This document shows, piece after piece, positions 5,102 through 52,333 of a stretch of 64,000 nt of DNA. Numbering within the stretch: the first letter of the stretch is position 1; every line of letters begins with the position of its first letter. The notes below the pieces were generated by a model. The model did no database searches, had not been told where the DNA came from, and was given only the letters and a program-made list of their open reading frames with translations. This stretch comes from an uncultured virus (IMG/VR IMGVR_UViG_3300033463_000052) (taxonomy: Duplodnaviria; Heunggongvirae; Uroviricota; Caudoviricetes). Location: IMG/VR virus record IMGVR_UViG_3300033463_000052; one strand, 5' to 3'. The translations under genes were made by a program, and so were the position numbers.

Positions 5102-5420
5102 TTTTCAAAATTTCCTTTTTATTTTCCCATACATATTTAACAAATTTATCCCAATTTAATTTTAATTGGTCATAAACATCTATTTTTTCTTCTTTAAATT
5201 TATCCCATCGAGGCCAACAAGTTAGAATAATTTCATATTCACATTTTGACCAAAAATAATACATACAAATTCTTTTTAATTCTGTTGAAAAATCTTCAAT
5301 TGTTTTACATTTTTTTATTATTTTTTTTAAATCTTCACAAAATGAATAATGTTTAAAAACATTGAAAATAATTATTTTTCTTTTATTAATATCTTCAAGA
5401 TAAGTATTCCATTCCAACAT
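5091..5420 (-). CDS. conserved hypothetical phage protein
   Basis: YYFWSKCEYEII...KIDVYDQ motif; coupled to DnaE. Confidence 0.6.
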   Translation of the reverse strand: MLEWNTYLEDINKRKIIIFNVFKHYSFCEDLKKIIKKCKTIEDFSTELKRICMYYFWSKCEYEIILTCWPRWDKFKEEKIDVYDQLKLNWDKFVKYVWENKKEILKNEI

Positions 5421-8400
5421 TATAAATCCTCCTTTTTATAACATTTAATTATTATTTCCTTTTCTCCTGTTTTTAAAAATGAACCATTTTCTGATTTTCT
5501 AAACTTATCCTTTTCTTGGAAAACACAAGTTATAATGTCGCCTATTTCTGCTTTATGTGTTGCAGACCATTTTTTATTTACTTTATATTGTTTTGAAGCC
5601 CCATAATGAATATTATATAAAGTAAATTTTTGCGTTCCAAAAGAAGAAGATTCAATATCTGTAATAATCCATGTAGTAGTTGGAATAGAAACATCAGATA
5701 ATGTTGTATACCCAAGAAATTCAATTTGCCATTTTATCAAATCAAAAACTGTAGTCTTTTCAATGTTTGATTTTTTTATCATTTTTGAAATTAATTTTTT
5801 ATTATCTATATCACGGAATTGTTTTTCTGTTTCTTTACCAGAACATTCTTTAATAATATTAATTTCTTCTTCAGTAAGTTTAGATTTTGAAATTACTTTA
5901 CTATCAATATATTTTTTATAAATTTCAAATTCTGTCATCAATTTTTTAGGAGAACCAAATTGAGAAAAATAATTTAATTTAAACAGAATTTCAATAGCTT
6001 TACTATTTATTCTATTATCAGAAATTAAATATTGATAAATTTCTGCCCTATTTTTGACACCTTTTAAACTTAATTCATAAAGAGCTTCAGGAGTAGACTT
6101 TGGCATATCTTTAATACTTGTCATTGTTTGAATAATACAATTATTTTCTTTGTCAATATTAAATTGTCTATTATCATCTCCAAATTTAATTTCTTTAAGA
6201 GAAAATCCACGTTTAATCATTTCTTGTTTAATTAAAGAAACTTTATTTTTTTCTCCTTTATTAGTAAATCTTTGAAGAACTACTTTATAAAATTCCAAAG
6301 GATAATATGCTTTAAGATAAGCAATTGTAACACTATCAATAGCCATACAATAAGCATGGGCAGAATTACAAGTTATAATTCCATCATTTGCTACAAAGTT
6401 ATGACCAACATCTTCGCTCATTTCTACATCATAAACATCTTCAATAATATTTTTTGCAATTGAAATTATTTTTTCAGTATTACATTCAATCCCATTTTCA
6501 TATTGTTTTATCCTGCCATGTTTATAATGTATTTTTTTATGGCAAGAACAACATAACCACATATAATTATCTTCAATATTATTGAATCTATTAAAATCTT
6601 TATGATGCACTTCAAATCTTTTTTCTAAAGAATAAGTTTCCCCACAACATTCGCATTGGCATAATAAATTTATTTTTTTATTTCTATAGTTTTCATAAAC
6701 AACAGAATCACCATTTATCTTTTTTTGAAAACCACATTCACCCTTTTTAGGAAAATTATTTTCAAAATTATTTGTTAATCTTGTATTAAAAAATTTTTTC
6801 TTATATTCACCTTGAACATAAAGTAAATCATTAATTTTTAAATCTTTTAATAATTTAATTCCTTCAACTGTTGGGAATTTATGGTTTTCAGTGGCCTTAA
6901 TTTTTCTTCCTGTTTCTGTTTTTATAATATAAGTTAAAGCTTTTGGTTGTTTATAAATATCAATAATCTTATTTTTATAAATTTTTCCATCTTTCATTGA
7001 TAATCCATAACCATAACCATAAAGATTATATTTATCATGCAAACTTTTATGTCCTGTACTTTTTGCATAATTTATATCGTGTTTAATCTTATACATTTCT
7101 TCTATTGTTGGAATAAAATTGCCATTATTACTTGGTTTTTTAATAATTGTATCACCAGATACACAATTAAACCCATACGCCGCACTATTTTCTACAATAG
7201 TCCAAACTTGTGTGGCTAATTCATTTGCTTTTTCTATATCGTTTGTTTCACCAGTAGCAATAATAGCAAGTGCAAAATTTTTAATAAACTTTGGTTTTGC
7301 ATCTTTGATAATATAATCTTTCTTTTTAGAAATTGCTTTTATAATTGTATAAGTATCGCTCATAGGAAATCCAGCAAATTCCAAAACCTTCATAAGACTT
7401 TCTTGATAAAGAATAAAAGAAGAAGAACAATATTCATCTTGAAGTAATTGGTCAAGTGCTTTAATGCCATATTCAAAATGCTGTCTACTTTCAAAAGTAT
7501 GATACATAGATTGAAAAGAAGGTCTTATTCCTGCTACAAATTGAGTAAGTTCTGATATATTTTTAGGTTTATATCTCATTACTTTAGCAGTTGATTTAGG
7601 TTGCTCACATTGATTAACACATTGAGTAAAACCATTAGCATAAATATCCCAAACTTTTTTATCATCTTTTACTTTTTCAAGTAATTGGTTTACAGAATAT
7701 GGTTCAATCCCAATTTCTTTATAAATATCATAAGTTAATCCAATTGAATCAACAATAAGATAATCTTGTTTTAAATAGCCAAAAGCATCAATTGTTCCTG
7801 ATTCTATAACAGCAGTTAATACTTTATTTCCAGTAGCTTCAGATTTACATAATACAATTCCTATATCTGATTCTACATCACCATCATAAGCAATCGTAGC
7901 ACATGGATGCCCTTTTATAGTATCATAAATTCCTAAATATTTTTGGCAACCTTTTACTAAATCTTTATATTGATTATCAATATAATCTTCTATATTTATA
8001 TCTTCATTTTCTTCTGCGTGTTTTTTTGCTAATTCATAAGAACTTAATTGTTTAGAAACTTCATTTGCAGTTTCAGGAGAAATACCATTTGCTCTTGCAT
8101 ACATCTTCCAAGCGGCTTTTAATTTGAGTGTACCTAAAGCAATTAAATCATAAGTACCTAAATCCCCAATTAACTCCTTTTGTGCTTGAATAAATGGTTC
8201 TCTGGAACTTACGTTGTTGTCGATATCGGGCGGCGTATGCGATTCTAAAACTCTTTCTTTGGTTAGAAATCTTTCAGAGTACATAAGAACAGAGCTATTT
8301 ACTTTATCTACTTTTGTTAATCTTAAAAGCTTATTAAGATACATAGAAACAGCAGAACCGCGCCCTGTAGGTGTTAATACTCCACCATATTTTTCTTGCC

Positions 8401-9466
8401 CATATTTCATAATATAATATGACAAAATAAAATAATCTGCCATATTACAAGCTTCAATTTCTTTTATATCATGATTTATTTCTTTTCTATATTCTTCGTA
8501 TTTATCTTTATTAATATCCCATTTTTGTTCTTTCCATTCATTTTTCAAAATAGATTCAAAAATTTTATTTCTTTCTTCTTGTGTTTTATTTTTTAAAGAT
8601 TTAATTACAGGAACTTTTAATGAACGGTCAAGAATAATATCTTCAAATTTAAAAATGATATTTGTGTTATCTATTGCTTCTTTAATTTCTTCATTTTTCA
8701 AAATGTCTTGTTCTTGGAATCTTTTAAAAAGCACATTATAAGTAGGAAAATCCATATACCAACCCTCTTCATCTTCATAACTTATATGTGCTGATTCTAA
8801 TAAATCATCCCTATCTACCATTTGATTTTCATTAATAACATGACTATCAACACCAGCAATAATAGGAATATTTAATTCATTATGCATTGTGATAATGTGT
8901 TTATTTAATTCTTTCTGTGAATCAGTATTATGTGGTTGTACTTCAAGAAAAAAATATTTAAATCTATCAGCTAAATATTGAACAAAATCGTCAATATCTT
9001 CGTATTTATTCCAAAATGCAATACAAGCAGTAGTAATCATAACATCATTACCATCAAGCATATCTAACAATTCTTTATCTATTCTTGGGCGATAATAATA
9101 TCCGTCTTTATTAGCAATAGAAATAATCTTATTAATCTGTTTTCTTCCCTTATCATTCCTTGCTAATAAAATAATATGGCAATTAGACTTGTCTTCTTCA
9201 TGTCTATCTTTAACCCAATAAGCTTCAACACCAAAAACAAATCTAATATTAGTATTGTTCTTTTTATTATATTTTTCTAAATCATCATAAGTTTTAAAAT
9301 AATTCCCAGCCCATCCATGTTCAACAGTAGTATAGATACATTCCCTGTTTCCATATCTTTTTCTTAATTCGTTCCAATAATCTTTATGAACAAGTGGACT
9401 GTCCTTTGTATAAACATTAGATAATGAAGTATGCTTATGATAATTTACCCAAATAGGTTCTTCCAT
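5420..9466 (-). CDS. dnaE: DNA polymerase III alpha subunit (family C) with intein
   Basis: PHP domain (NYHKHT, GVEAY, DSH), GRGSAV, PPDIDN catalytic motif, YQE, YGFN...SAHAY. Confidence 0.95.
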   Translation of the reverse strand: MEEPIWVNYHKHTSLSNVYTKDSPLVHKDYWNELRKRYGNRECIYTTVEHGWAGNYFKTYDDLEKYNKKNNTNIRFVFGVEAYWVKDRHEEDKSNCHIILLARNDKGRKQINKIISIANKDGYYYRPRIDKELLDMLDGNDVMITTACIAFWNKYEDIDDFVQYLADRFKYFFLEVQPHNTDSQKELNKHIITMHNELNIPIIAGVDSHVINENQMVDRDDLLESAHISYEDEEGWYMDFPTYNVLFKRFQEQDILKNEEIKEAIDNTNIIFKFEDIILDRSLKVPVIKSLKNKTQEERNKIFESILKNEWKEQKWDINKDKYEEYRKEINHDIKEIEACNMADYFILSYYIMKYGQEKYGGVLTPTGRGSAVSMYLNKLLRLTKVDKVNSSVLMYSERFLTKERVLESHTPPDIDNNVSSREPFIQAQKELIGDLGTYDLIALGTLKLKAAWKMYARANGISPETANEVSKQLSSYELAKKHAEENEDINIEDYIDNQYKDLVKGCQKYLGIYDTIKGHPCATIAYDGDVESDIGIVLCKSEATGNKVLTAVIESGTIDAFGYLKQDYLIVDSIGLTYDIYKEIGIEPYSVNQLLEKVKDDKKVWDIYANGFTQCVNQCEQPKSTAKVMRYKPKNISELTQFVAGIRPSFQSMYHTFESRQHFEYGIKALDQLLQDEYCSSSFILYQESLMKVLEFAGFPMSDTYTIIKAISKKKDYIIKDAKPKFIKNFALAIIATGETNDIEKANELATQVWTIVENSAAYGFNCVSGDTIIKKPSNNGNFIPTIEEMYKIKHDINYAKSTGHKSLHDKYNLYGYGYGLSMKDGKIYKNKIIDIYKQPKALTYIIKTETGRKIKATENHKFPTVEGIKLLKDLKINDLLYVQGEYKKKFFNTRLTNNFENNFPKKGECGFQKKINGDSVVYENYRNKKINLLCQCECCGETYSLEKRFEVHHKDFNRFNNIEDNYMWLCCSCHKKIHYKHGRIKQYENGIECNTEKIISIAKNIIEDVYDVEMSEDVGHNFVANDGIITCNSAHAYCMAIDSVTIAYLKAYYPLEFYKVVLQRFTNKGEKNKVSLIKQEMIKRGFSLKEIKFGDDNRQFNIDKENNCIIQTMTSIKDMPKSTPEALYELSLKGVKNRAEIYQYLISDNRINSKAIEILFKLNYFSQFGSPKKLMTEFEIYKKYIDSKVISKSKLTEEEINIIKECSGKETEKQFRDIDNKKLISKMIKKSNIEKTTVFDLIKWQIEFLGYTTLSDVSIPTTTWIITDIESSSFGTQKFTLYNIHYGASKQYKVNKKWSATHKAEIGDIITCVFQEKDKFRKSENGSFLKTGEKEIIIKCYKKEDL
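6365..7165 (-). mobile_element. 267-aa intein in DnaE with internal HNH-type nuclease domain
   Basis: Begins CVSGDT after YGFN; block B IKATENHKF; ends VYDVEM...HNFVANDGIITCN followed by Ser; internal CECC...EVHHKD...LCCSCHKKIH. Confidence 0.92.
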
Positions 9467-12023: not shown

Positions 12024-12194
12024 ATATATAAAAACTTTTCTCCTAAATAAGATTCTAAAATAACGCCCTAAAGAATTTTAAAATCTATACAACGCTTGAA
12101 AAGTTGATTTGTTGATTTTATGTATTCGTGCGCACTCGTTTCACCTGCTAATAGGGATAGCTTTTGGGAACTAACAATAATCAACAGCGTTTCT

Positions 12195-12469: not shown

Positions 12470-12777
12470 ATATTATACCACACTTTTTATTATTTGTCAA
12501 GTATTTTTTTTAGAAGAAGGATGATTTAACTGCTATCCACAGAGAACTTCATCAAACTTGTGAATCCTATATATATACTTCTTCTTATATAAATCGACAG
12601 TTTTATTTCTACTTTGCCAAAGCTTCATTAAAACTGTCTTAGGTTTAACCACTCAACTATAGTCAGCTTATAGGCGGCAAACTCTACAAACCAACCATTT
12701 CAAAGGCAAGGATTTTAGCCTGTTTACAATCCCAACTTGGTACGCTTAGACCTATGACCATAGGCGTATTGGGATAT

Positions 12778-12853: not shown

Positions 12854-13144
12854 ATATTTTAAAATAGGTTTTTATCCTTCTATGCAGGATGCCTATAAGC
12901 ATTTCAACCTATCAACCCACTTTTCTTTTTCCTCGGACTGGATAAGGAACCTACGCTTACCAGCGGCAGTTTTTTGAAATGATACTTGCAAACATTAGTA
13001 GAATATTTTATTACCTTTTGTTATTACTACCATTCTAACGCAATTACACAAAGTAACTTGAGGGGCTTCTTTTCAGGACTTATTTAAACCCATACGACTG
13101 TTCCGCTAAACGCTATTCACTTGCGGTGTCCACGTTGAATTGAT

Positions 13145-13260
13145 ATGTAATCGTTACCCCATGTCCAGCTTTTCACTTATCATGCGTTGATTTGAATAAG
13201 CAGTTTACCCTATCATTTCAAGATACTAACTTATTTCTCTTGGATTATTCACGATTACAT
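13145..13260 (-). ncRNA. putative structured ncRNA directly 3' of tRNA-Glu
   Basis: Perfect 10-bp closing stem atgtaatcgt/acgattacat; no ORF. Confidence 0.55.
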
Positions 13261-13337
13261 TGGTGATGCTATGGGGACTTGAACCCCAAAATTCCAGCGT
13301 GAAAGGCTGGTGACTTTACCTATTCGTCTATAGCACC
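13261..13337 (-). tRNA. tRNA-Glu(UUC)
   Basis: CCAGC-CTTTCAC-GCTGG anticodon arm, CCA. Confidence 0.92.
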
Positions 13338-13492
13338 ATAATTAAACTCCCCCACGAACAACACATTAGTCTGTTCATTATCTTTGTCTTGATATTATCT
13401 CAAATGGGCTGGTATGTGATTTTCCAGCCTTGTGGGGCTTGAAAGTTCACTTAAGAGCTTACAAATCAAAATCGTCCAATTGTTACCATTCC

Positions 13493-13649
13493 ATATGCCC
13501 TTATGTTCTGGTGTCTGGTGTTATGGACAATTTACCAGCACTTTTCCCCTCAATGGGCGGGAAGTCCAGCTACTCTCTGTTAAGGTCGTTGCTCAAATTT
13601 CGGATGTTACAGCATCCTCACCGTAATCTGTAACTTACGGATGGCATAT
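13493..13649 (-). ncRNA. putative ~157-nt RNA with kissing loop and pseudoknot
   Basis: 7-bp closing stem; hairpin loops GUUACAG and CUGUAAC complementary; UGGAC/GUCCA pairing. Confidence 0.6.
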
Positions 13650-13709
13650 TCGTATTTCATTTGTTTTCCTTATTGGAATGGCACAAAGCAATACTGAAAT
13701 AAAAGCCTC

Positions 13710-13785
13710 TGGTCTGAGTGGGGAGACTCGAACTCCCGGCATCGTGATCCCAAATCACGCATTCTACCAACTGAATTACACCCAG
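13710..13785 (-). tRNA. tRNA-Pro(UGG)
   Basis: CGTGA-TTTGGGA-TCACG, TTCGA, CCA. Confidence 0.92.
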
Positions 13786-13800
13786 ATATTTTTAAAAAAG

Positions 13801-13877
13801 TGGTAGACGGTTGGGGACTTGAACCCCAATCTTTGGATTATAAGTCCAAGGCTTCTAACCGATTGAGCTAACCGTCT
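13801..13877 (-). tRNA. tRNA-Ile(UAU)
   Basis: TTGGA-CTTATAA-TCCAA, full cloverleaf, ACCA end. Confidence 0.9.
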
Positions 13878-14278
13878 AAATCAATTTTTTTATTTCTGAG
13901 GGATACCAAGTTTTTCCTCTGCCCTTCCCTTTATTAGCACCCCTATAATTTTTAGTTAAAGAATAACAATTTGGGTATAAAAGAATTAAATTTTCTGGAC
14001 GATTATTTTTATAATTCCCATCTATATGTTCAACTTCTAAAGGTATTAATCCTGTAAATGGATTTCTTTCACCCCATCCCCCATCCACATTTACTACATT
14101 TACGGTCTGGTATGTTGCCCCAATGGTCAGTTTTATGAAAACCATCTATTTCACCACTTAACAATTTTCTTTCCCATTCTTTTCTTTCAAATTCATGTTG
14201 ACATTTACTACAACAATATTTTCTTCCTTTATAAGTTTTTTCAATTTCTTTCCTACAATTTAAACATTTTATATTCAT
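13876..14278 (-). pseudogene. frameshifted HNH endonuclease
   Basis: Two overlapping ORFs joined at a GGATGGG duplication (~14073-14086); LYPNCY in place of the usual LCPNCH. Confidence 0.75.
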
Positions 14279-14498: not shown

Positions 14499-15266
14499 TC
14501 ATTCTTTTTTGTTTATACACTTAAATAAATGTGTTTTTTCATTATAGATTAAGAAAGCATACTTACTTGTATGAAATCTTTTATGGTCAGAAGAAGTTTG
14601 AAAAACAATTAAATTATTAAATTTATTATTATGTTTATTTTCATCAATATGATGAACTGTATTTTCTTTTTTTAATTTTCCATTTAACAATTTATTTGCA
14701 ATATAATCGTGTTCAAAATAAGATGGAAAATCACAAATTTCTTTTAAACTTCTTTTCTTTATAATTATATATTCTTTATTATTATTTGTTTCATAATAAG
14801 GAATTTTTATATTTAAAGTTTCTATATAATCAAACCATTTTTTAATTTCTTCTTTATTATGATTTTCAAATATATGATAAAAATTTTTATCTAAATAGCT
14901 CCAAGTTGTATTTCTTTTATACCCATTTTCATATTTATTTTTCATTGTTTGGACTTGTTTTGCTATTTCTTTACAATTTTCTTTTGTTTTCCCTTTTCTA
15001 TTATTTTTAATATAAATAGCAAATTTATCTACATCTTTTCGATTTGGGTTATATTTACATCTTAATTCATGTTGTGCTAAACTATTTTTATTTTTGCATT
15101 CTTTTTTACAAAATTTACAATATAAATCATCATGGTCTAAATGATATGAATTAATTTTATCATTTTTATAACCATTTATACAAGCATTTTCGTGTTTTTT
15201 AATACAAGCAACATCAATTAATCTTCCACAATTTTTACAAGCTACTTTTTTATGTATATTATACAT
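14499..15266 (-). CDS. HNH endonuclease with N-terminal Zn-finger-like repeats
   Basis: CKNC..H..C, CKFC..HELRC, VHHIDENKHNNKFNNL...HKRFH. Confidence 0.8.
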   Translation of the reverse strand: MYNIHKKVACKNCGRLIDVACIKKHENACINGYKNDKINSYHLDHDDLYCKFCKKECKNKNSLAQHELRCKYNPNRKDVDKFAIYIKNNRKGKTKENCKEIAKQVQTMKNKYENGYKRNTTWSYLDKNFYHIFENHNKEEIKKWFDYIETLNIKIPYYETNNNKEYIIIKKRSLKEICDFPSYFEHDYIANKLLNGKLKKENTVHHIDENKHNNKFNNLIVFQTSSDHKRFHTSKYAFLIYNEKTHLFKCINKKE

Positions 15267-15446: not shown

Positions 15447-15607
15447 ATATCTAACTTACTTTTATATTATATCACAATTTTCTTCATTTGTCAAGAACTT
15501 TTTTTATGGCGACTCGTTCCTCACACAGTTCATTAAGGTAAGCGGATTTCTAACCACCATTGTGTATAAATGCTGTTCACTTCATTTGACTTCTATATTA
15601 TATCACA

Positions 15608-17655: not shown

Positions 17656-19059
17656 TTAATGGCTTAAAAGAAACATTGCAAGAAATAGAATGTCAATAAC
17701 CCAAGTTGAAATACGAATTTCTTGAATCTTTCCAACGAAAATTTTAATAAAAGTATAGGCAAGGATGCCAATACCAATACCATTACTGATACTATAACTA
17801 AATGCCATAATGGTAACAGTTAAGAATGCTGGAATTGCAATTTCTGGATTTTCCCATTCAATATCTTTCAGAGAACCAATCATTAATGCACCTACATAAA
17901 TAAGAGCCGCTGAAGTTGCCGCACTTGGAATTAATGAAGCAATTGGGGCAAAGAACATTGCAATGAAGAATAAACCAGCAGTAGTTATAGCAGAAAGACC
18001 AGTTCTTCCACCTTCTGCAACACCAGCAGATGATTCAACAAAAGTAGTAACAGTAGAAGTGCCACATATAGCACCAGTACAAGTAGCCAGCGCATCACTT
18101 AGCATGGCTTTATTTAAATTAAGAACTTCGCCATTTTCTGTCATAAGTCCACCACGGGAACAAGCACCATAAAGTGTACCTAAAGTATCAAACATATCAA
18201 CAATACAAAAGGCAATCATTGTAGTAAGCAAACTTAAGACAAAATTAGCTTGTCCATGAATTAAAATATAATTGCTGAAATCAAAACCAGATTTAAAAAC
18301 TGCAAATAAAGATTCCCTACCAAATGCCTTAAAAGCTGTTGAAGGACTCATAGTAAGAAAACTAAATCCATCATAAAAACCTTGAATAGTAAGCCCACCA
18401 AGATAATAAAGAACTGTACCAATAACAATGCCAATTAATACTGCACCTTTCTTTTTAAAAGCAACAAGGGCAGAAATAATTAAAATTGTAATAATTGTAA
18501 CAAGCATTGGCATAATTGTTTCCCAATTAGCAGAACCACTAAAGATATTAAATGAAGACATAGTGGAAGCTGTTGAAGCATCAGGAACAATAATTCCAGC
18601 AGATTGTAAGCCAATATAAGCAATAAACAAACCAATACCAGCAGAAATAGAATTTTTAACTGCTTTTGGAATAGCATTGAAAATAATTTTTCGTAAACCA
18701 GTTATGGTCAACAAAGTAAAAACAATGCCATCGAATAATACCATCACTAATGCATTAGCATAAGTAAATCCAAGCCCAAGACATACAGAATAAACAAAAT
18801 AAGCATTTAATCCCATCCCTGAAGCTTGTGCCAAAGGAAGATTTGCAAGCAATCCAATTAAAAGCGAACCAACACAAGCCGAAATTGCTGTTGCAATATA
18901 CATTCCTTCATAACTTACATCAGGTAAAGCAGAAAACATACCAGCATTTACAAACAAAATATAAGCCATTGCCATAAATGTTGTAATACCAGCTAAAATT
19001 TCTGTACGGATGGTAGTATTACGTTCTTTTAAATTAAAAAAACTTTCCATTAACACCAA
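17656..19059 (-). CDS. NCS2/AzgA-family purine permease (PbuG-like)
   Basis: TEILAGITTFMAMAYILFVN, GMGLNAYF, DMFDTLGT, GTSTVTTFVESSAGVAEGGRTGL; many hydrophobic segments. Confidence 0.93.
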   Translation of the reverse strand: MVLMESFFNLKERNTTIRTEILAGITTFMAMAYILFVNAGMFSALPDVSYEGMYIATAISACVGSLLIGLLANLPLAQASGMGLNAYFVYSVCLGLGFTYANALVMVLFDGIVFTLLTITGLRKIIFNAIPKAVKNSISAGIGLFIAYIGLQSAGIIVPDASTASTMSSFNIFSGSANWETIMPMLVTIITILIISALVAFKKKGAVLIGIVIGTVLYYLGGLTIQGFYDGFSFLTMSPSTAFKAFGRESLFAVFKSGFDFSNYILIHGQANFVLSLLTTMIAFCIVDMFDTLGTLYGACSRGGLMTENGEVLNLNKAMLSDALATCTGAICGTSTVTTFVESSAGVAEGGRTGLSAITTAGLFFIAMFFAPIASLIPSAATSAALIYVGALMIGSLKDIEWENPEIAIPAFLTVTIMAFSYSISNGIGIGILAYTFIKIFVGKIQEIRISTWVIDILFLAMFLLSH

Positions 19060-47495: not shown

Positions 47496-48695
47496 ATGAT
47501 AAAAAAAGAAAAAGAAAACTACTTAGAATTTGCAGAAAGAATTACACAAGCACTTTCTTGCGGTTCAATTAGTTATAAAGAGTGGGCTGAATCTTTAATT
47601 GGCGAACAGATATATTCTGAAGAAACATTAAGAAGATGTAGCATATTTTTTGATAGTTTTTTAAATAAGTTAAAAAAGGAAGAATTTTCTTTAAAAGATT
47701 ATAATTTTATAAAAAGTTATACTAATTTAAAAGAAGAAATAGAGTTACAAAGAAATAAATTAAAACAAGAAAAAATAGAATTAAATGAATCGAATAGATG
47801 GAAAGCAAGAAATGAATTGTTTCAAGAAAGAATCATTGAAGCAATAAATAACTTGCCCTCTTTTTCTAAAGAAAATTTATTCATTTTTAAAAATGAAAAA
47901 ATAGATACAAGTGCGCTTTTATGTTTGTCAGATTTTCATGCTGGCAGTACATATGAAATTAAAGGTTTATATAATGAAATAGTAAATAAATATGATTTTG
48001 AAATAATGCAAGCAAGAATGTGGTCTATCATAAGAAAAATAGAAAATGAAGATATTTTATATGATGATATGACTGTTGCAATTCTTGGCGATTGCTTTGA
48101 AAATATATTAAGACTTTCTTCTTTGGCAAAATTAAAAGAACCAGTTGTAGATACTGTTATTAAATTTTCAGAATTTTTATCAACTTGGTTTGTGGAATTA
48201 TATAAAACTATAAGTGTTCCAATTAATGTAGTTATAGTTGGTGGCAATCACGATATTAACAGACCTTTAAATAATAAACCACAATTAGAGGATGAAAATT
48301 TAACAAAGATAGTTGTTGAATTTTTAAAATTAAGATTAAAAGATTTTGATGACATAAAAGTAGATGATTATACAGATGTTGCCTTAAAGAATATAAAAGG
48401 AACTAATGTGCTTTTTCAACATGGCGAAGATAAAGATATAGAAAATACAATGAATTATTTTGAAAATTTATATAATGTTTCTGTAGATGAAATTATATGT
48501 GGTCATTTACATAGACCAGAAAGCAAATCTGTTGGAATAACAGAAGTTGGAGATAGAACTATTTTAAGAGTTGGTTCTATTTGTGGTATAGACCCTTATG
48601 CAAAAAAGGTAAGATGTGCCGCAAGACCTTCCTGTTATTTTGCTTTATATGACCAAGATAATGGAAAAACTTGGTCAAGAAATTTTTATTTATAA
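47496..48695 (+). CDS. calcineurin-like metallophosphoesterase
   Basis: SDFH, LGD, GNHD, HG, GHLH motifs. Confidence 0.85.
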   Translation: MIKKEKENYLEFAERITQALSCGSISYKEWAESLIGEQIYSEETLRRCSIFFDSFLNKLKKEEFSLKDYNFIKSYTNLKEEIELQRNKLKQEKIELNESNRWKARNELFQERIIEAINNLPSFSKENLFIFKNEKIDTSALLCLSDFHAGSTYEIKGLYNEIVNKYDFEIMQARMWSIIRKIENEDILYDDMTVAILGDCFENILRLSSLAKLKEPVVDTVIKFSEFLSTWFVELYKTISVPINVVIVGGNHDINRPLNNKPQLEDENLTKIVVEFLKLRLKDFDDIKVDDYTDVALKNIKGTNVLFQHGEDKDIENTMNYFENLYNVSVDEIICGHLHRPESKSVGITEVGDRTILRVGSICGIDPYAKKVRCAARPSCYFALYDQDNGKTWSRNFYL

Positions 48696-48718
48696 ATTAA
48701 AAAAATATAGACAGGAGG

Positions 48719-48904
48719 ATGGTAATGTTTACTTTATATAGACCAGCAAATTATGATAATCCAAGAGCATCTTCCTTTGTTGGATTAAGTACAGATACAA
48801 AACCTATAGATGAAAAGAATGGTGCTTCATTTGAAGAAATAGATACTGGAAAAGTTTATAGATTTGATGAAGAAAATAAAAAATGGTATGAGGGTGTGAT
48901 GTGA
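48719..48904 (+). CDS. small protein with LSTDxKP domain
   Basis: GLSTDTKP...NG..FEEIDTGKVYRFD...W. Confidence 0.65.
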   Translation: MVMFTLYRPANYDNPRASSFVGLSTDTKPIDEKNGASFEEIDTGKVYRFDEENKKWYEGVM

Positions 48905-48908
48905 TAAT

Positions 48909-49949
48909 ATGATTAAACAAATAAGAGCCGCATTTTATCACAATAAAAAAAATGCACAATATTGTTGTTTAAGTGAAGATATAGAAAATGCAATCCCCGA
49001 TTGTTTAAAAAATGGGGATGAAGTTTATTTTATAGATACTGGTAAGAAATATGTTTATGATGCTGTTAGTGGTCAATTATATGAAAAACCATCTGGTGGG
49101 GGTGGCGGGGGAACTTCTGTTTATCCCTATGATAGCGACCCAGAAGCTTTAGGACAAGAAGCCAGTCCCGGCACATCTGATGATTTTTCAAGGGGTGACC
49201 ATGTTCACCCATTCCCTACTGCTTCTGATGTTGGGGCATTACCTTTAACTGGTGGAACAATGTCTGGTGCGATTGCAATGGGTTCATATAAAATAACTGG
49301 TCTTGCAGATGGGGAGAATAATAATGATGCTGTTTCTGTACAACAGATGGCATCTGCTATATCACAAAGCTCTGCTTATTTTAGGGGAAGTTTTGCCAGT
49401 AATGCGGCGTTATTAGCTGTCGCTTGGCAAACAAGTAACCCAAGTGCCTCTTATTATGTTACGAATAATGACTATGCAATCGTATTAGATGATGAAACTC
49501 ATAATGATGAATGTTGGAGATATTTATATGTGTCTGGGACTGGATGGACTGCTCAATATCGAATTAATGAAACGCCATTAACCCAAGCACAAATTAATGC
49601 GCTTAATTCTGGAGCTACAACGCAGAATATTAGTTCTATTGCGAATAAAGCAGACAAATTCGTTGAAGTAACTGTCAATACTTCTGGTGCGGTTACGCAG
49701 GCGCTGGACGCCGGGAAGATCTATCATTTCACCGGTGCTCTGACGGCGCTGACGATCACGCTCAATGCGGCGGCATCCGGGCAGCTCGCACAGTACCACT
49801 TCGACTTTGACAGCGGCGCAACGCCTCCCACGTTTACGCTGCCGAACACGGTTGTAATGCCGACCGGCTTCGCTGTGGCGGCAAACACGCACTATGAGAT
49901 CGACATTCTCAACAACTTCGGGGCGGTGATCGCATGGGCAATCTCTTGA
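48909..49949 (+). CDS. fibre-like virion protein (mosaic AT/GC)
   Basis: SRGDHVHP, LPLTGGTMSGAI.MG..KITGL fibre motifs; GC rises at ~49680. Confidence 0.65.
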   Translation: MIKQIRAAFYHNKKNAQYCCLSEDIENAIPDCLKNGDEVYFIDTGKKYVYDAVSGQLYEKPSGGGGGGTSVYPYDSDPEALGQEASPGTSDDFSRGDHVHPFPTASDVGALPLTGGTMSGAIAMGSYKITGLADGENNNDAVSVQQMASAISQSSAYFRGSFASNAALLAVAWQTSNPSASYYVTNNDYAIVLDDETHNDECWRYLYVSGTGWTAQYRINETPLTQAQINALNSGATTQNISSIANKADKFVEVTVNTSGAVTQALDAGKIYHFTGALTALTITLNAAASGQLAQYHFDFDSGATPPTFTLPNTVVMPTGFAVAANTHYEIDILNNFGAVIAWAIS

Positions 49950-50581
49950 TGCTCCGGCGGCGCGGAATAAAAGCTCGACGTAAAATTCTTCCTGTCGCGT
50001 ACAGAGAGGTAGAGTATCTCGAAAGTTCCGGGACGCAGAAAATTGAGACAGGCTATGTACCTAAACCGACAAATACGCATGAGCTGTCGCTTATTTTCTC
50101 ACCTCTGAGTATTACCGGTATTCGCATATTTTGTTCGTGTCCGGACAAATTCCCAAACGCGGATAACGGACAGCGCTTTCAATTCCCTGCAAACGGGGCG
50201 GGTTTATACTCACAGGCGAATGGTGCGCCCGATTGGTCTGTAATGGATAAATTCGGCGACATGACAATTGGGGCTGTCTATACGCTGTCTCTTAGGCAAA
50301 TGCAAGTATCATGCTTGGGCCAGTCGTTTCCAGTCTCCTTTCTCGCGTCTGGGAACACCTCTCAGCTTGGCATTTTTGGGCAACCGACCAGCGAAGCCAA
50401 CACGCGATTCATCGGGCGAATTTATTACTTCTGTTATAAAATTTCTGGCGTTGAACAGGTCGAGTTAATTCCGTGCTATCGAATAGCCGACGGGAAACCC
50501 GGCATGTACGACACAGCAAGAAGCCTCTTTTTAACAAATAGCGGCAGCGGCGAGTTCGTCTGCGGCCCTGCAATTTACTGA
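49934..50581 (+). CDS. putative receptor-binding / lectin-like domain protein (GC-rich)
   Basis: VEYLESSGTQ.I.TG...GRIYY...LIPCYR..DGKPGMYD. Confidence 0.6.
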   Translation: MGNLLMLRRRGIKARRKILPVAYREVEYLESSGTQKIETGYVPKPTNTHELSLIFSPLSITGIRIFCSCPDKFPNADNGQRFQFPANGAGLYSQANGAPDWSVMDKFGDMTIGAVYTLSLRQMQVSCLGQSFPVSFLASGNTSQLGIFGQPTSEANTRFIGRIYYFCYKISGVEQVELIPCYRIADGKPGMYDTARSLFLTNSGSGEFVCGPAIY

Positions 50582-50586
50582 TAGGG

Positions 50587-50877
50587 GTGACGATAATGTA
50601 CGGAAAAATGATAAACAATGTGCTGCACATTGCACCCAACAAACTGTCCGGTGACGGCGTGACGGTCTACAACCCGCCCGCGGAGATGTATCTGGCGCAG
50701 GGCTGGAAGCCCGTGGACTATACCGATCCTCCCGGTGAGCCGCCGGAGGGATACCGCTACATCAGCGGATGGGAGGAGCAGGCGGACGCCATCATGCAGA
50801 CGTGGACGCTCGCCCCGCTGCCGGAGGACATTGGCGATGAAGAGGCGTTCAATATCATCTTCGGAGGTGCGGAATGA
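50587..50877 (+). CDS. fibre-associated small protein, GC-rich paralog of 52413..52694
   Basis: MYGK.....APNKL.GDGV.VYNPP..MYL.QGWK shared by both. Confidence 0.75.
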   Translation: MTIMYGKMINNVLHIAPNKLSGDGVTVYNPPAEMYLAQGWKPVDYTDPPGEPPEGYRYISGWEEQADAIMQTWTLAPLPEDIGDEEAFNIIFGGAE

Positions 50878-51061
50878 AACGAGAACACGCTTATAAACTG
50901 CGCGAGATGCTGCACAAGGCGGCGGCATCCTCGGCGCGGTCGGCCTGAAGGTCATCCCTGACTTCCCCGTCGCCAACATCATCGACGCCGTTGCAGTGGG
51001 CATCGAGTCCGGGCTGGCTGCTACCGGCGTCAATCAGGTCGGCAAGCAGCTCAGCAAGTAA
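50874..51061 (+). pseudogene. fused fragments: 5' end of a 52691 paralog joined to the 3' half of a holin-like gene
   Basis: MKREHAYKLREMLHK, then in another frame GGILGAVGLKVIPDFP...AVAVGIESGLAATGVNQVGKQL*. Confidence 0.7.
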
Positions 51062-51304
51062 ATAATATGACAGATCCGAAAGCAGGCAAGGCCAACATCA
51101 AGAAAAAGACGCCCGCCCCGAGCTACAAAATGCACGGAGCGGGTAGGGATTGGCCTTCCCGATTTCAGAGAAACATCGACGTAAAGGTCGAAGTTTCCGA
51201 CTATAACAGCAAGGCGGGCAAGATGTCGCTTTAGGATCAGGTCAGCATCAAAGCGCTCTGCCATAACGGCAGGGCGCTTTTCATTTAAGGAGATGAGATA
51301 AGAT

Positions 51305-52333
51305 ATGCCTTTTATCGAAGGGCAGGCTCAGACGCCGACCAATAAAACTACTCCCGCTACTTCCGGGAATAGTTCGCGTACAAATGTAGGTAGCGCGAGT
51401 ATTCCTACGGGTAGCTATGGCGCTCCGGTAACCGCAGCTACTGGCAGCTCAGCCGAAGCCGCTCATATTCAGCAGAGTCAGGACCGGCTTCGAGGGGACG
51501 GCAATCTTAATGTTGGCGGCAACGTGATTACGTTGAGCCCCGGTACAAGTGTTCCTGATACTCGCGCTACAACGACCGCCAACGTCTTGAGTGGGCCTGA
51601 CTATTCCGGGGGAGGTAATACCGGGGTAAAAAAACCTGCGAGTCCGGCAAATGAGGTGACCGGGTATACGGACACTGCCACTGGCGGCGGAACAGGCGAT
51701 CCTACTGGCGGCAACACCGACACGGATAAACCGCCTGTTGATACCCCAACGCAGCCTACCTATGACCCTAACGCCTCCACCCGCCCCTCTGGCAATGGCT
51801 CCTCTGGCTCTTCCGGTGGCGGCTCCTCTGGCGGCAACGGCACCGGCTATACCGATGCCCAGCTCCTTTCGCAGGCGCTGAATGCCGCCGGTATTCTCAC
51901 GGCTGATCCTTACCAGCTGCCCGAGGTTTCCGGCCCCAACGCTCAGCCTGTGGATCATGTGGACACGACTCAGCTGAAGGAGATGCTCCAGCAGATCCTC
52001 GACTCCCAGACTCAGCAGAGCCAGCAGCAGGTGGATTACACCGTCCAGCAGGGCGTCAATGAACTGACCCGTGCTATGGAAGACGCGGCCACTCAGTACC
52101 AGACCCAGCGTAATCAGGCGACCGCTGATGAGATGCGGGCGCGCATCTACTGGTGCATGATTTATGACAATGGGATGCTTGTGCGTAATTATGTACCGTG
52201 CCTCCGTGTATCTGATGGTAAGCCCGGTCTTTATGACTTCTGCGGCTCAATATGTTCTATCACGAACAGCCCGTTTTATCCAAGTGCAAACGCAAACGGC
52301 GAGTTCACCGATATTGGAGGGATTGTTTTATGA
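51305..52333 (+). CDS. chimeric GC-rich protein: low-complexity/Gln-rich N-part plus C-terminus homologous to 49934 protein
   Basis: Switch at ~52137 to RIYWCMIY...YVPCLRVSDGKPGLYD. Confidence 0.55.
   Translation: MPFIEGQAQTPTNKTTPATSGNSSRTNVGSASIPTGSYGAPVTAATGSSAEAAHIQQSQDRLRGDGNLNVGGNVITLSPGTSVPDTRATTTANVLSGPDYSGGGNTGVKKPASPANEVTGYTDTATGGGTGDPTGGNTDTDKPPVDTPTQPTYDPNASTRPSGNGSSGSSGGGSSGGNGTGYTDAQLLSQALNAAGILTADPYQLPEVSGPNAQPVDHVDTTQLKEMLQQILDSQTQQSQQQVDYTVQQGVNELTRAMEDAATQYQTQRNQATADEMRARIYWCMIYDNGMLVRNYVPCLRVSDGKPGLYDFCGSICSITNSPFYPSANANGEFTDIGGIVL

What the first reader, a model, noticed from the sequence alone, without database searches (positions are those of the whole stretch)
13493..13649. 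~157-nt RNA with a 7-bp kissing loop and a second pseudoknot
Seen on the minus strand: closing stem AUAUGCC/GGCAUAU; hairpin CCGUAA-[GUUACAGA]-UUACGG next to hairpin GGAUG-[CUGUAA]-CAUCC, whose loops are complementary (GUUACAG/CUGUAAC); a later hairpin CUGGU...ACCAG whose loop GUCCA can pair with upstream UGGAC. Such dense tertiary potential is typical of ribozymes or protein-binding RNAs (inference). I do not recognise the class.
Basis: partly seen in the sequence, partly recalled or inferred. Interest (0 to 1): 0.72.

Follow-up and report, generated by a model that had tools for sequence, protein, structure and literature searches.

The report
New knotted RNA in phage tRNA arrays

Summary
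The helices are at the stated coordinates, but by themselves they are no better than chance: fold z-scores lie within this phage's background, and a comparable complementary loop pair arises in 12 of 40 shuffled windows.

Relatives settle it. Two exact-word scans of IMG/VR recovered 47 further phage contigs with the same RNA. It matches nothing in Rfam 15.

**Supported by compensating changes, 42 aligned members**
- Hairpins A, B, D and E.
- A newly seen hairpin F.
- The 6-bp loop A–loop B contact: all 6 pairs change on both sides, in about 12 different complementary words.

- The GUCCA loop pairs with the UGGAC downstream (13478-13474), not the upstream copy.
- Only UGCC/GGCA of the 7-bp "closing stem" is conserved, and it is a pseudoknot into the loop of hairpin F.
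- The RNA spans about 13646-13470 on the minus strand.

It always lies on the tRNA strand inside tRNA arrays, sometimes directly abutted by tRNAs.

Best reading: a stable RNA cut out of the tRNA precursor. Because only 3 nt join hairpins A and B, the loop contact probably forms between two copies, giving a dimer (inference). Function unknown.

The parts
13470..13651 (-). Whole RNA as delimited here: the covariance-model match 13486-13651 plus the 3' tail that carries the second pseudoknot strand.
   Evidence: R2 match at 152.5 bits. Tail pairing. In relatives a tRNA ends 3 nt before the GCC and another starts 16 nt after GGAAUGG, which bounds the unit.
13643..13646 (-). UGCC, the 5' strand of pseudoknot 1. 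It pairs with GGCA in the loop of hairpin F.
   Evidence: GCC/GGC forms a standard pair in 42 of 42 members at each of its three positions (one member has U-G at one position). U-A forms in 37 of 42. The pairs do not vary, so there is no covariation test.
13621..13640 (-). Hairpin A: stem 13640-13635 with 13626-13621, loop GUUACAGA.
   Evidence: 6 pairs, 5 with changes on both sides, 98.4% of cells paired.
13628..13633 (-). Loop A strand of the kissing helix (UUACAG).
   Evidence: It pairs with 13612-13607. All 6 pairs change on both sides across 42 members and 91% of cells are paired. This helix was not part of the model that made the alignment. Cognate loop duplexes average -7.6 kcal/mol against -3.2 for non-cognate ones.
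13618..13620 (-). 3-nt linker UGA between hairpins A and B.
   Evidence: The linker is 3 nt in all 42 aligned rows: UGA in 37 and UGC in 5.
13602..13617 (-). Hairpin B: GGAUG / CAUCC, with loop CUGUAA (13612-13607) as the other strand of the kissing helix.
   Evidence: 5 pairs, all with changes on both sides, 97% of cells paired.
13583..13598 (-). Hairpin C, with loop GAGCAACG. In this window two of its four stem pairs are broken by U at 13597 and 13596.
   Evidence: Family members show AGGU/ACCU, ACGU/ACGU, ACGC/GCGU, AAGU/ACUU and similar stems. All four laid runs, and L036, have G G at these two places. This helix was read by eye only and has not been counted.
13564..13567 (-). Conserved GGAC.
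   Evidence: It is nearly invariant in the family while loop E varies. Only 8 of 41 members are complementary to it.
13545..13562 (-). Hairpin D: a 4-bp stem, UCCC/GGGA here, closing a conserved 10-nt loop (GCCCAUUGAG here, GCCCGUUGAG in most members).
   Evidence: 4 pairs, 2 with changes on both sides and 2 invariant, 100% of cells paired.
13515..13538 (-). Hairpin E (CUGGU / ACCAG). Its 14-nt loop holds GUCCA at 13528-13524.
   Evidence: 4 model pairs, all with changes on both sides, 94.5% of cells paired.
13506..13512 (-). Conserved joining segment ACCAGAA.
   Evidence: It is near-invariant in the 9 members found with a word from elsewhere in the RNA. Contigs from two RNA libraries end at 13508 and about 13512, which is only a weak hint.
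13492..13505 (-). Hairpin F: CAUA / UAUG around loop AGGGCA. The loop's GGC (13499-13497) pairs with the 5' GCC.
   Evidence: Variants are CACA/UGUG, CGUA/UACG, UGCA/UGCA and CGCA/UGCG. 3 of 4 pairs change on both sides and 99.4% of cells are paired.
13486..13491 (-). Conserved GAAUGG.
   Evidence: It is kept in 7 of the 9 members that were not selected on this word; two have GAAUAG. The upstream CCAUUCC that could pair with it in this window is absent from the other members.
13474..13478 (-). UGGAC, the 3' strand of pseudoknot 2. It pairs with GUCCA in loop E.
   Evidence: 40 of 41 members have a Watson-Crick run of 4 or more between loop E and the first 20 nt after GGAAUGG, in about 17 different complementary words. 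Cognate duplexes average -7.95 kcal/mol against -4.67 for non-cognate ones.
13710..13785 (-). Upstream tRNA-Pro (UGG) with encoded CCA.
13261..13337 (-). Downstream tRNA-Glu (UUC) with encoded CCA.
15466..15494 (-). Perfect sigma-70-type promoter (12 of 12, with extended -10) ahead of tRNA-Leu. It is the likely start of the transcript that carries the RNA.
   Evidence: Consensus scan only.

Best explanation
The stretch encodes one member of a previously uncatalogued family of about 180-nt non-coding RNAs that large uncultivated phages carry inside their tRNA gene arrays.

The RNA is made as part of the tRNA precursor transcript. It is set free, at least where tRNAs abut it, by the enzymes that trim tRNAs.

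It folds into a compact knot:
- a 5' GCC that pairs into the loop of the 3' hairpin F
- two neighbouring hairpins, A and B, whose loops are complementary
- hairpins C, D and E around conserved joining sequences
- a 3' tail that pairs back into the loop of hairpin E

Hairpins A and B are joined by only three nucleotides, so a fully formed 6-bp loop-loop helix cannot easily close within one molecule. In that reading the folded particle, not a coded message, is the working form, acting in trans during infection.

Shown: the family, the helices, both loop pairings, and the strand and context. Inferred: co-transcription, release by tRNA processing, dimerisation, and any function.
For: **Family**
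- Exact-word scans of IMG/VR gave 39 loci (one of them the window's own record) and then 9 further contigs carrying the RNA.
- The covariance model R2 scores all of them at 96-160 bits. It finds none in the 31 loci of the window's closest polymerase relatives.

**Structure**
- On 42 aligned members, 96.8% of cells pair, against 72.7% in shuffles (0 of 500 reach the observed value). The covariation score is 0.629 against 0.167 (0 of 500). Slid controls give 35-42%.
- The loop A-loop B helix was not in the model. All 6 of its pairs change on both sides.
- For 14 of 19 distinct loop combinations, the cognate partner beats every non-cognate one.
- The tail pseudoknot is present in 40 of 41 members.

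**Non-coding**
- No reading frame is kept between the window and L036.
- G+C is 45% against 29% for the window.

**Context**
- In 34 member loci there are 159 tRNAs on the RNA's strand and 0 on the other. The closest tRNAs lie 3 nt upstream and 16 nt downstream.
- 100 of 100 Rfam matches in 20 member loci are tRNAs.
- A perfect promoter lies ahead of the array.

**Expression hint**
- Contigs from 2 of the 2 RNA libraries laid hold the RNA.

**Dimer idea**
- The linker is 3 nt in 42 of 42 rows.
- By A-form geometry (my estimate) the two stem bases would lie about 45 A apart in a stacked kissing complex. Three nucleotides span about 20 A.
- In ROOL and GOLLD, which are phage RNAs near tRNA islands, kissing loops first found by covariation proved to be bridges between molecules (PMC12286853, passages read).
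Against: - No experiment or read-level data show the RNA's ends, its abundance, or that it is transcribed at all. The RNA-library evidence is assembled contigs, which can come from DNA.
- Covariation cannot tell pairing within a molecule from pairing between molecules. The steric argument is a back-of-envelope estimate, not a model.
- Many members are not directly abutted by tRNAs: gaps reach 1243 nt upstream and 837 nt downstream. Release by tRNA processing alone cannot hold for all.
- Single members lack hairpins A and B (L036; low-coverage contig, possibly chimeric), lack hairpin E (L108), or have the C-D region replaced (L050). Either no element is strictly indispensable or these copies are decayed.
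- This window's own copy has a damaged hairpin C.
- The alignment was fitted to the nested helices by the model, which favours them. That does not apply to the two loop pairings.
- Members were fished with exact words, so conservation of those words is partly by selection.
Confidence: 0.55

Rival explanations
1. The same real RNA family, but the loop-loop helix forms within one molecule. The monomer is a compact ribozyme or ligand- or protein-binding RNA, for example one that helps to cut or mature the tRNA precursor.
For: - There are highly conserved joining sequences between variable stems: GGAC, the hairpin D loop, ACCAGAA and GAAUGG. Catalytic and ligand-binding RNAs show this pattern.
- The RNA sits where gut phages are known to keep self-cleaving theta ribozymes (PMC10879173, section 7 read).
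- Contigs from two RNA libraries end within 5 nt of each other inside ACCAG. This is only a weak hint of a processing site.
Against: - The 3-nt linker makes a stacked 6-bp intramolecular kiss sterically hard (my inference; for the linker length).
- No Rfam ribozyme or riboswitch model matches, even at E <= 10.
- There is no HDV-like first helix at the tRNA end. The complement of the first 7 nt after the CCA is absent from the next 60 nt (read by eye).
- Distances to the flanking tRNAs vary from 3 to over 1000 nt, unlike theta ribozymes.
Confidence: 0.25
2. A decoy or sponge RNA: the folded RNA binds and neutralises a host protein, for example a tRNA-directed defence nuclease or an RNA-processing enzyme.
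For: Only the context: it is phage-borne and embedded among phage tRNAs.
Against: No conserved neighbouring protein gene was looked for or seen. No tRNA-like feature was detected in the RNA by ARAGORN or by Rfam's tRNA model.
Confidence: 0.12
3. A passive spacer: folded filler that merely keeps neighbouring tRNAs from misfolding or provides nuclease entry sites, with no function of its own.
For: Other spacers of this array also begin with a strand that pairs further on. Earlier notes of this scan describe stem-closed spacers in other rumen phage tRNA arrays.
Against: - The same fold, with conserved loop and junction sequences, is kept across 47 other contigs in different tRNA contexts.
- A clamp of the spacer's ends is not significant here: 7 of 60 shuffles do as well.
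- The window's long outer stem is not conserved.
Confidence: 0.06
4. Not a functional RNA: a chance fold, a decayed tRNA, or a DNA-level mobile element that is conserved only because it spread recently.
For: - Thermodynamic and loop-complementarity statistics of the single sequence are at chance level.
- Closest variants are 96-98% identical and sit in mosaic contexts.
Against: - Members as low as about 69-76% identical keep every helix through compensating changes.
- Loop and tail pairings change in step in about 12 and about 17 different words.
Confidence: 0.02

Closest known systems
ROOL and GOLLD large ornate RNAs (Rfam families; cryo-EM in PMC12286853)
   Same: Both are phage and prophage RNAs of unknown function, often next to tRNA islands. 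ROOL was first found in rumen samples. Their folds are rich in pseudoknots, and their covarying kissing loops turned out to bridge separate molecules (passages read).
   Different: - They are about 580 nt and over 800 nt, against about 180 nt here.
- No sequence or model similarity: no Rfam hit in the window or in 20 member loci.
- Assembly into a multimer is shown for them and only inferred here.
Phage T4 stable RNAs C and D (species 1 and 2) of the T4 tRNA cluster
   Same: Small stable non-tRNA RNAs encoded inside a phage tRNA cluster, co-transcribed and processed with the tRNAs, with function unknown. This is recalled knowledge, and it was also named as closest known in earlier notes of this scan.
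   Different: Neither is in Rfam as far as my searches show. Their published folds, as I recall them, are simpler and lack a covarying kissing loop. None of this was tested.
Theta ribozymes (minimal HDV-like, tRNA-associated; PMC10879173)
   Same: Structured RNAs of gut Caudoviricetes, placed directly beside phage tRNA genes (abstract and section 7 read).
   Different: - Theta ribozymes are short and have a nested double-pseudoknot fold.
- Their cleavage site lies within 5 nt of the tRNA 3' end, and only 4.5% of their tRNAs encode CCA.
- Here the RNA is about 180 nt and has a different topology. Its distance to the upstream tRNA varies from 3 to 1243 nt, and the flanking tRNAs encode CCA.
phi29 packaging RNA (pRNA)
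   Same: A phage RNA of similar size with two mutually complementary, covarying loops that pair between molecules to build a ring. This is recalled, not tested.
   Different: pRNA belongs to small phi29-like phages and is not in tRNA arrays. It has 4-bp loop contacts and a three-way junction between the two loops. No similarity was found by Rfam search.

Membership tests
Any Rfam 15 family (4227 models, including ROOL, GOLLD, raiA, HDV-like, twister, pistol, hatchet, hammerhead, RNase P, tmRNA, SRP, 6S, YrlA) | A match to the family's covariance model at or near its gathering score | tested here: not met
   Only tRNAs pass the gathering score in the window and in 20 member loci. At E <= 10 on the spacer alone there are three chance-level hits of 9-16 bits against gathering scores of 39-50 bits.
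Theta / HDV-like ribozymes | Cleavage site (the first nucleotide of helix P1) within about 5 nt of the 3' end of a tRNA | tested here: not met
   The conserved RNA starts 64 nt after tRNA-Pro in the window and 3 to 1243 nt after the nearest upstream tRNA in relatives. The criterion is taken from PMC10879173, section 7.
Theta / HDV-like ribozymes | Nested double pseudoknot in the order P1-P2-P3-P1'-P4-P2', with a catalytic C in J4/2 | tested here: not met
   The helix order found here is different: 5' GCC, A, B, C, D, E, F with the GCC partner in its loop, then the tail pairing into loop E. No HDV model hit. The order of the HDV helices is recalled.
ROOL / GOLLD (ornate multimeric phage RNAs) | Homology to the family model | tested here: not met
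   No hit.
ROOL / GOLLD (ornate multimeric phage RNAs) | Phage-borne, and located at tRNA islands | tested here: met
   The window encodes a portal protein, an endolysin and a polymerase. There are 159 same-strand tRNAs in 34 member loci.
ROOL / GOLLD (ornate multimeric phage RNAs) | Homo-oligomer held together by intermolecular kissing loops | not testable with these tools
   Covarying complementary loops and a 3-nt linker are compatible with this. Only biophysics or cryo-EM can show it.
tRNA or tRNA-like gene | Cloverleaf recognised by ARAGORN or by Rfam RF00005 | tested here: not met
   No tRNA call between 13338 and 13709.
Protein-coding gene | An open frame that is kept in relatives | tested here: not met
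   - There is no minus-strand ORF of 40 aa or more.
- The 67-aa plus-strand ORF changes frame twice relative to L036.
- The Shine-Dalgarno sequence of a 17-aa minus-strand ORF is altered in run X4.

The most novel reading that the evidence does not exclude
The RNA is a small, self-assembling particle. Two copies clasp each other through the loop A-loop B contacts, so that two parallel 17-bp stacks are tied at each end by the 3-nt linkers. This would be a compact cousin of the ROOL and GOLLD RNA-only assemblies.

The conserved junctions and the hairpin D loop would then form a surface that acts on the tRNA or translation machinery during infection. If so, RNA-only quaternary structure would not be limited to giant RNAs, and a 180-nt model system would exist for it.
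Probability: 0.35. Interest if true: 0.8.

Novelty: new member of a known kind. Interest (0 to 1): 0.66.

Why it matters
Phage tRNA islands are known to harbour enigmatic structured RNAs: T4 RNAs C and D, ROOL, GOLLD and theta ribozymes. The roles of most are still open.

This family adds a short, well-delimited member supported by covariation. It has three long-range pairings, and its geometry argues for pairing between molecules.

At about 180 nt it is small enough for chemical probing, native gels, crystallography or cryo-EM, and for clean loop-swap genetics. That could make it a tractable entry into what these tRNA-island RNAs do for phages.

The alignment and model made here would also let the family be added to RNA catalogues and annotated in viromes.

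Tried and rejected
**Searches that found no relatives**
- blastn of all four spacers against 31 related phage loci, and the single-sequence model R1: no relatives except L036.
- Exact 20- to 24-mers from hairpin A and hairpin D of the window: only the window's own IMG/VR record, one metagenome contig (L036), and two chance matches in bacterial genomes. The window's hairpin D stem differs from the family majority, which explains these misses.
- The GAGGGGAAAAGTGCTGG word: 4 other loci, none an R2 hit.
- INPHARED phages by blastn: only tRNA matches.

**Readings dropped**
- A long closing stem (13709-13675 with 13492-13450) and a "clamped spacer". The clamp is not significant, since 7 of 60 shuffles do as well. 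The stem is lost when 10 nt are trimmed. Its changes in run X4 are not compensated. It is absent from relatives.
- My own early objection that the kissing loop must be a chance match or an alternative helix. Covariation overturned it.
- A 17-aa ORF with a Shine-Dalgarno sequence, and a 67-aa plus-strand ORF.
- Theta/HDV fold, RNase P-like, SRP Alu-like and group I-like readings. No model hits. The comparisons from memory gave nothing usable.

**Unresolved or uninformative**
- 12 of the 51 hits to the 17-mer were a protein-coding chance match. They were dropped before all counts.
- Supplements of the 10,006-candidate phage RNA catalogue (PMC10690425) were searched for two 15-mers: no occurrence in 6 files, and 3 files could not be searched. 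I cannot say whether the family is listed there.
- Coverage gaps and depth in the laid contigs were not used as evidence.
- The habitat hint (24 runs from 18 studies, mostly bovine gut) was checked by laying only 4 runs.

Full report
**Setting**

The window is part of an uncultivated, AT-rich phage: 29% G+C overall and 26-33% in most 4-kb bins.

- It encodes a DNA polymerase III alpha subunit with an intein, a tyrosine recombinase, a portal protein, an endolysin and an exonuclease.
- Ten tRNA genes lie on the minus strand between 11949 and 19188.
- Perfect sigma-70-type promoters on the same strand stand at 15494 and 12500.
- Two HNH endonuclease genes, one of them split over two frames, are interspersed among the tRNAs.
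- The finding sits in the 372-nt gap between tRNA-Pro (13710-13785) and tRNA-Glu (13261-13337). Both tRNAs encode CCA.

**The observation on its own**

The single sequence does not stand out, however.

- Fold z is -2.1 for the 157 nt and -3.4 for the whole spacer on the minus strand, against -1.7 on the plus strand.
- Among 54 sampled 256-nt windows of this phage the mean z is -1.3, and 20% reach -3 or lower.
- Of 341 adjacent hairpin pairs in the window, 3 have a loop-loop run of 6. The other two are AT repeats.
- 12 of 40 dinucleotide-shuffled windows contain at least one such pair.
- A 5-nt loop-to-strand match is trivial by chance.
- G+C is 45%, against 29% for the window, and there is no conserved reading frame. 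These were the only intrinsic hints.

**Close variants**

- One near-identical IMG/VR record exists.
- A word index of public runs listed 24 runs from 18 studies, mostly bovine gut. Twenty-two of them hold 14-46% of the spacer's words, and the two highest may be the source sample. Six of the 24 are RNA libraries.
- I laid contigs of four of these runs. The block 13459-13714 recurs at about 96-98% identity. Next to it the sequence is replaced in X3 (195 nt swapped for 184 others) or much more diverged. In X4, 18 differences fall in the 138 nt upstream of 13649, against 2 in the 122 nt of core.
- In one RNA-library contig a different tRNA precedes the block.
- All four runs read G G where the window has U U at 13597 and 13596.
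- These variants are too close to test structure. The presence of the block in contigs from two RNA libraries does not prove transcription.

**Finding the family**

- Searches with the window's own hairpin A and hairpin D words found almost nothing.
- blastn against 31 loci of related phages found nothing. Those phages carry only 0-4 tRNAs near the polymerase gene.
- A 17-mer from the 3' part gave 51 IMG/VR loci. Twelve are a coding-sequence chance match. The other 39, one of them the window's own record, share the whole architecture.
- A 23-mer from the majority form of hairpin D then gave 32 loci, 9 of them on new contigs. All nine are strong model hits.
- The covariance model R2, built from 34 unique members, scores all members at 96-160 bits, the 12 false positives at 20-24 bits, and nothing in the polymerase-related loci.
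- Rfam finds only tRNAs in 20 member loci: 100 of 100 matches.

**Structure from 42 aligned members**

Reading 5' to 3', with window coordinates on the minus strand:

| Element | Coordinates |
|---|---|
| UGCC | 13646-13643 |
| Hairpin A | 13640-13621 |
| 3-nt linker UGA | 13620-13618 |
| Hairpin B | 13617-13602 |
| A-rich joiner, then hairpin C | 13598-13583 |
| Conserved GGAC | 13567-13564 |
| Hairpin D, with a conserved 10-nt loop | 13562-13545 |
| Hairpin E | 13538-13515 |
| ACCAGAA | 13512-13506 |
| Hairpin F | 13505-13492 |
| GAAUGG | 13491-13486 |
| 3' tail | to about 13470 |

- Over 32 pairs in 7 helices, 96.8% of cells form a standard pair, against 72.7% in shuffles (0 of 500).
- 25 pairs show changes on both sides.
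- The covariation score is 0.629 against 0.167 (0 of 500). Sliding the partners by 1-3 columns drops pairing to 35-42%.
- The alignment was fitted to the nested helices, which favours them. The two loop pairings below were not in the model.

**The kissing loop is real**

- Loop A (UUACAG, 13633-13628) and loop B (CUGUAA, 13612-13607) are complementary in the window.
- In relatives the same columns read UCCUAC/GUAGGA, CUGCAC/GUGCAG, CUGUCA/UGACAG, UUGCCG/CGGCAA, CUGCAA/UUGCAG, CUAUCA/UGAUAG, UUGCGG/CCGCAA and others, about 12 words in all.
- All six pairs change on both sides, and 91% of cells pair. Most of the misses are a group of four members that the model misaligned by one column, and these are complementary when read by eye.
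- Without any alignment, cognate loop duplexes average -7.6 kcal/mol against -3.2 for non-cognate pairs. For 14 of 19 distinct combinations the cognate partner beats every other.
- The Mann-Whitney p of 2e-11 ignores relatedness among the sequences and should be read only as a description.

**The second pseudoknot exists, but with a different partner**

- The loop of hairpin E varies: GUCCA here, and CUCAC, CCCAC, GUCAC, CGUUAC, GUAAG, GACAA and others elsewhere.
- A stretch 4-12 nt after GAAUGG changes in step with it. 40 of 41 members have a Watson-Crick run of 4 or more there, and the 41st keeps it through a G-U pair.
The supported one is 13478-13474.

**The closing stem is mostly not a stem**

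- GCC/GGC forms a standard pair in all 42 members, and the adjoining U-A in 37 of 42.
- The outer three pairs of AUAUGCC/GGCAUAU form in 17, 26 and 26 of 42, with no covariation: 113-383 of 500 shuffles do as well.
- Instead CAUA and UAUG, on either side of AGGGCA, form hairpin F. It changes to CACA/UGUG, CGUA/UACG, UGCA/UGCA and CGCA/UGCG in the members found with the second probe.
- The GGC therefore lies in a hairpin loop, and its pairing with the 5' GCC is a third long-range contact. It never varies, so it stays untested.
- The still longer outer stem that RNAfold draws in the window is not conserved.

**Context**

- In 34 member loci of at most 3 kb there are 159 tRNA genes on the RNA's strand and none on the other. 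33 of the 34 loci have at least one.
- The nearest upstream tRNA ends 3 nt before the GCC in one member. The nearest downstream tRNA starts 16 nt after GAAUGG, just past the tail pairing, in another. This bounds the functional unit at about 180 nt.
- Other gaps are long, up to 1243 nt upstream and 837 nt downstream.
- In 16 of the 31 loci that have a downstream tRNA, that tRNA is Glu(UUC), as in the window. Many of these loci are close relatives, so I draw nothing from this.
- Three members lack a module: L036 lacks hairpins A and B (low-coverage contig beside a truncated rpsD, possibly chimeric), L108 lacks hairpin E, and in L050 the C-D region is replaced.
- The window's own copy has two of the four hairpin C pairs broken.

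**How it most likely works**

Shown: a conserved, knotted RNA fold, encoded on the tRNA strand of phage tRNA arrays.

Inferred:
- It is transcribed from the array's promoter and released with the tRNAs. RNase P would cut at the 5' end of a following tRNA, and 3' trimming of a preceding one would free the other end. Where tRNAs are distant, other nucleases must act.
- For the loop contact, the linker between hairpins A and B is 3 nt in all 42 rows.
- In a stacked kissing complex of 6 + 6 + 5 base pairs, the two stem bases are about 45 A apart by A-form geometry. Three nucleotides reach about 20 A. This is my estimate, not a model.
- Two molecules side by side solve this neatly. Loop A of one pairs with loop B of the other and vice versa, giving two parallel 17-bp stacks joined at each end by a linker.
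- There is a precedent. In ROOL and GOLLD, phage RNAs "often near tRNA islands", kissing loops first found by covariation proved to be bridges between chains (PMC12286853, passages read).

I put about 0.95 on "real structured RNA family", about 0.45 on "the loop contact is intermolecular", and very little on any specific function.

**Comparison and novelty**

- It is not a member of any Rfam 15 family.
- It is not a theta/HDV-like ribozyme by placement or topology.
- It works like, or at least lives like, the tRNA-island RNAs of phages: T4 RNAs C and D (recalled), ROOL and GOLLD.
- Literature searches for tRNA arrays or islands, phage, structured or non-coding RNA and kissing loop turned up no description of it.
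- A catalogue of 8,495 unnamed IMG/VR candidates exists (PMC10690425). I could search only part of its supplements, with no hit. Prior listing as an anonymous candidate therefore cannot be excluded.
- Earlier notes of this scan report similar but not sequence-related RNAs in other rumen phage tRNA arrays.

**Verdict**

This is a genuine new RNA family with unusually clear covariation for its tertiary contacts. Its function is unknown.

Noticed in passing
window 5420-9466 (-): The DNA polymerase III alpha gene (1348 aa) carries an intein-type insertion (Pfam Intein_splicing in relatives). Most close relatives are about 1081 aa and lack it. Some relatives carry an HNH domain in the insertion.
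   Followed up: partly
window 13876-14278 (-): An HNH endonuclease gene between tRNA-Met and tRNA-Ile is split into two overlapping frames (69 aa and 89 aa), so it is probably frameshifted or decayed. A second, intact HNH gene lies at 14499-15266. Such endonucleases could drive the mosaic exchange of array segments seen in the laid contigs.
   Followed up: partly
window 12854-13260 (-), 12510-12777 (-), 12024-12194 (-): The other inter-tRNA spacers are also G+C-enriched (31-36%) and gene-free. The Glu-Gly spacer starts with a perfect 10-bp stem that closes its first 116 nt. It recurs at about 88% identity in run X3 and has no Rfam match. These may be further uncatalogued RNAs.
   Followed up: partly
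window 13338-13458 (-): The 121 nt between the RNA's tail and tRNA-Glu fold into a separate domain. That domain is replaced together with the tRNA in run X3 and is about 96% conserved in run X4.
   Followed up: no
window 13596-13597: The window and its near-identical IMG/VR record have U U where four other runs and L036 have G G. This breaks two pairs of hairpin C. It is either a real lineage-specific defect or an error shared through a common source sample.
   Followed up: partly
window 48001-52000: A 46% G+C island in a 27-30% G+C phage. It holds three ORFs (346, 215 and 342 aa) with no PHROG match. One has a weak, below-cutoff Pfam hit to a trimeric-autotransporter stalk repeat.
   Followed up: partly
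L036 923-1051 (-): A 129-nt Rfam tRNA match, that is, a tRNA gene with an insertion of about 56 nt that ARAGORN does not call. It lies downstream of the RNA homolog. The same low-coverage contig carries rpsK and a truncated rpsD on the other strand, so it is possibly chimeric.
   Followed up: no
window 17656-19059 (-): A 467-aa xanthine/uracil-type permease (Pfam PF00860) is encoded inside the tRNA region of the phage. PHROGs labels its family "tail protein", which looks like a mislabel.
   Followed up: no
L053, L079, L081, L106, L125 (about 1385-1440 in the 3-kb loci): A subgroup of the family carries an extra conserved insert of about 45 nt with its own hairpin (GCUGG...CCAGC) between hairpin C and the GGAC element.
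   Followed up: no
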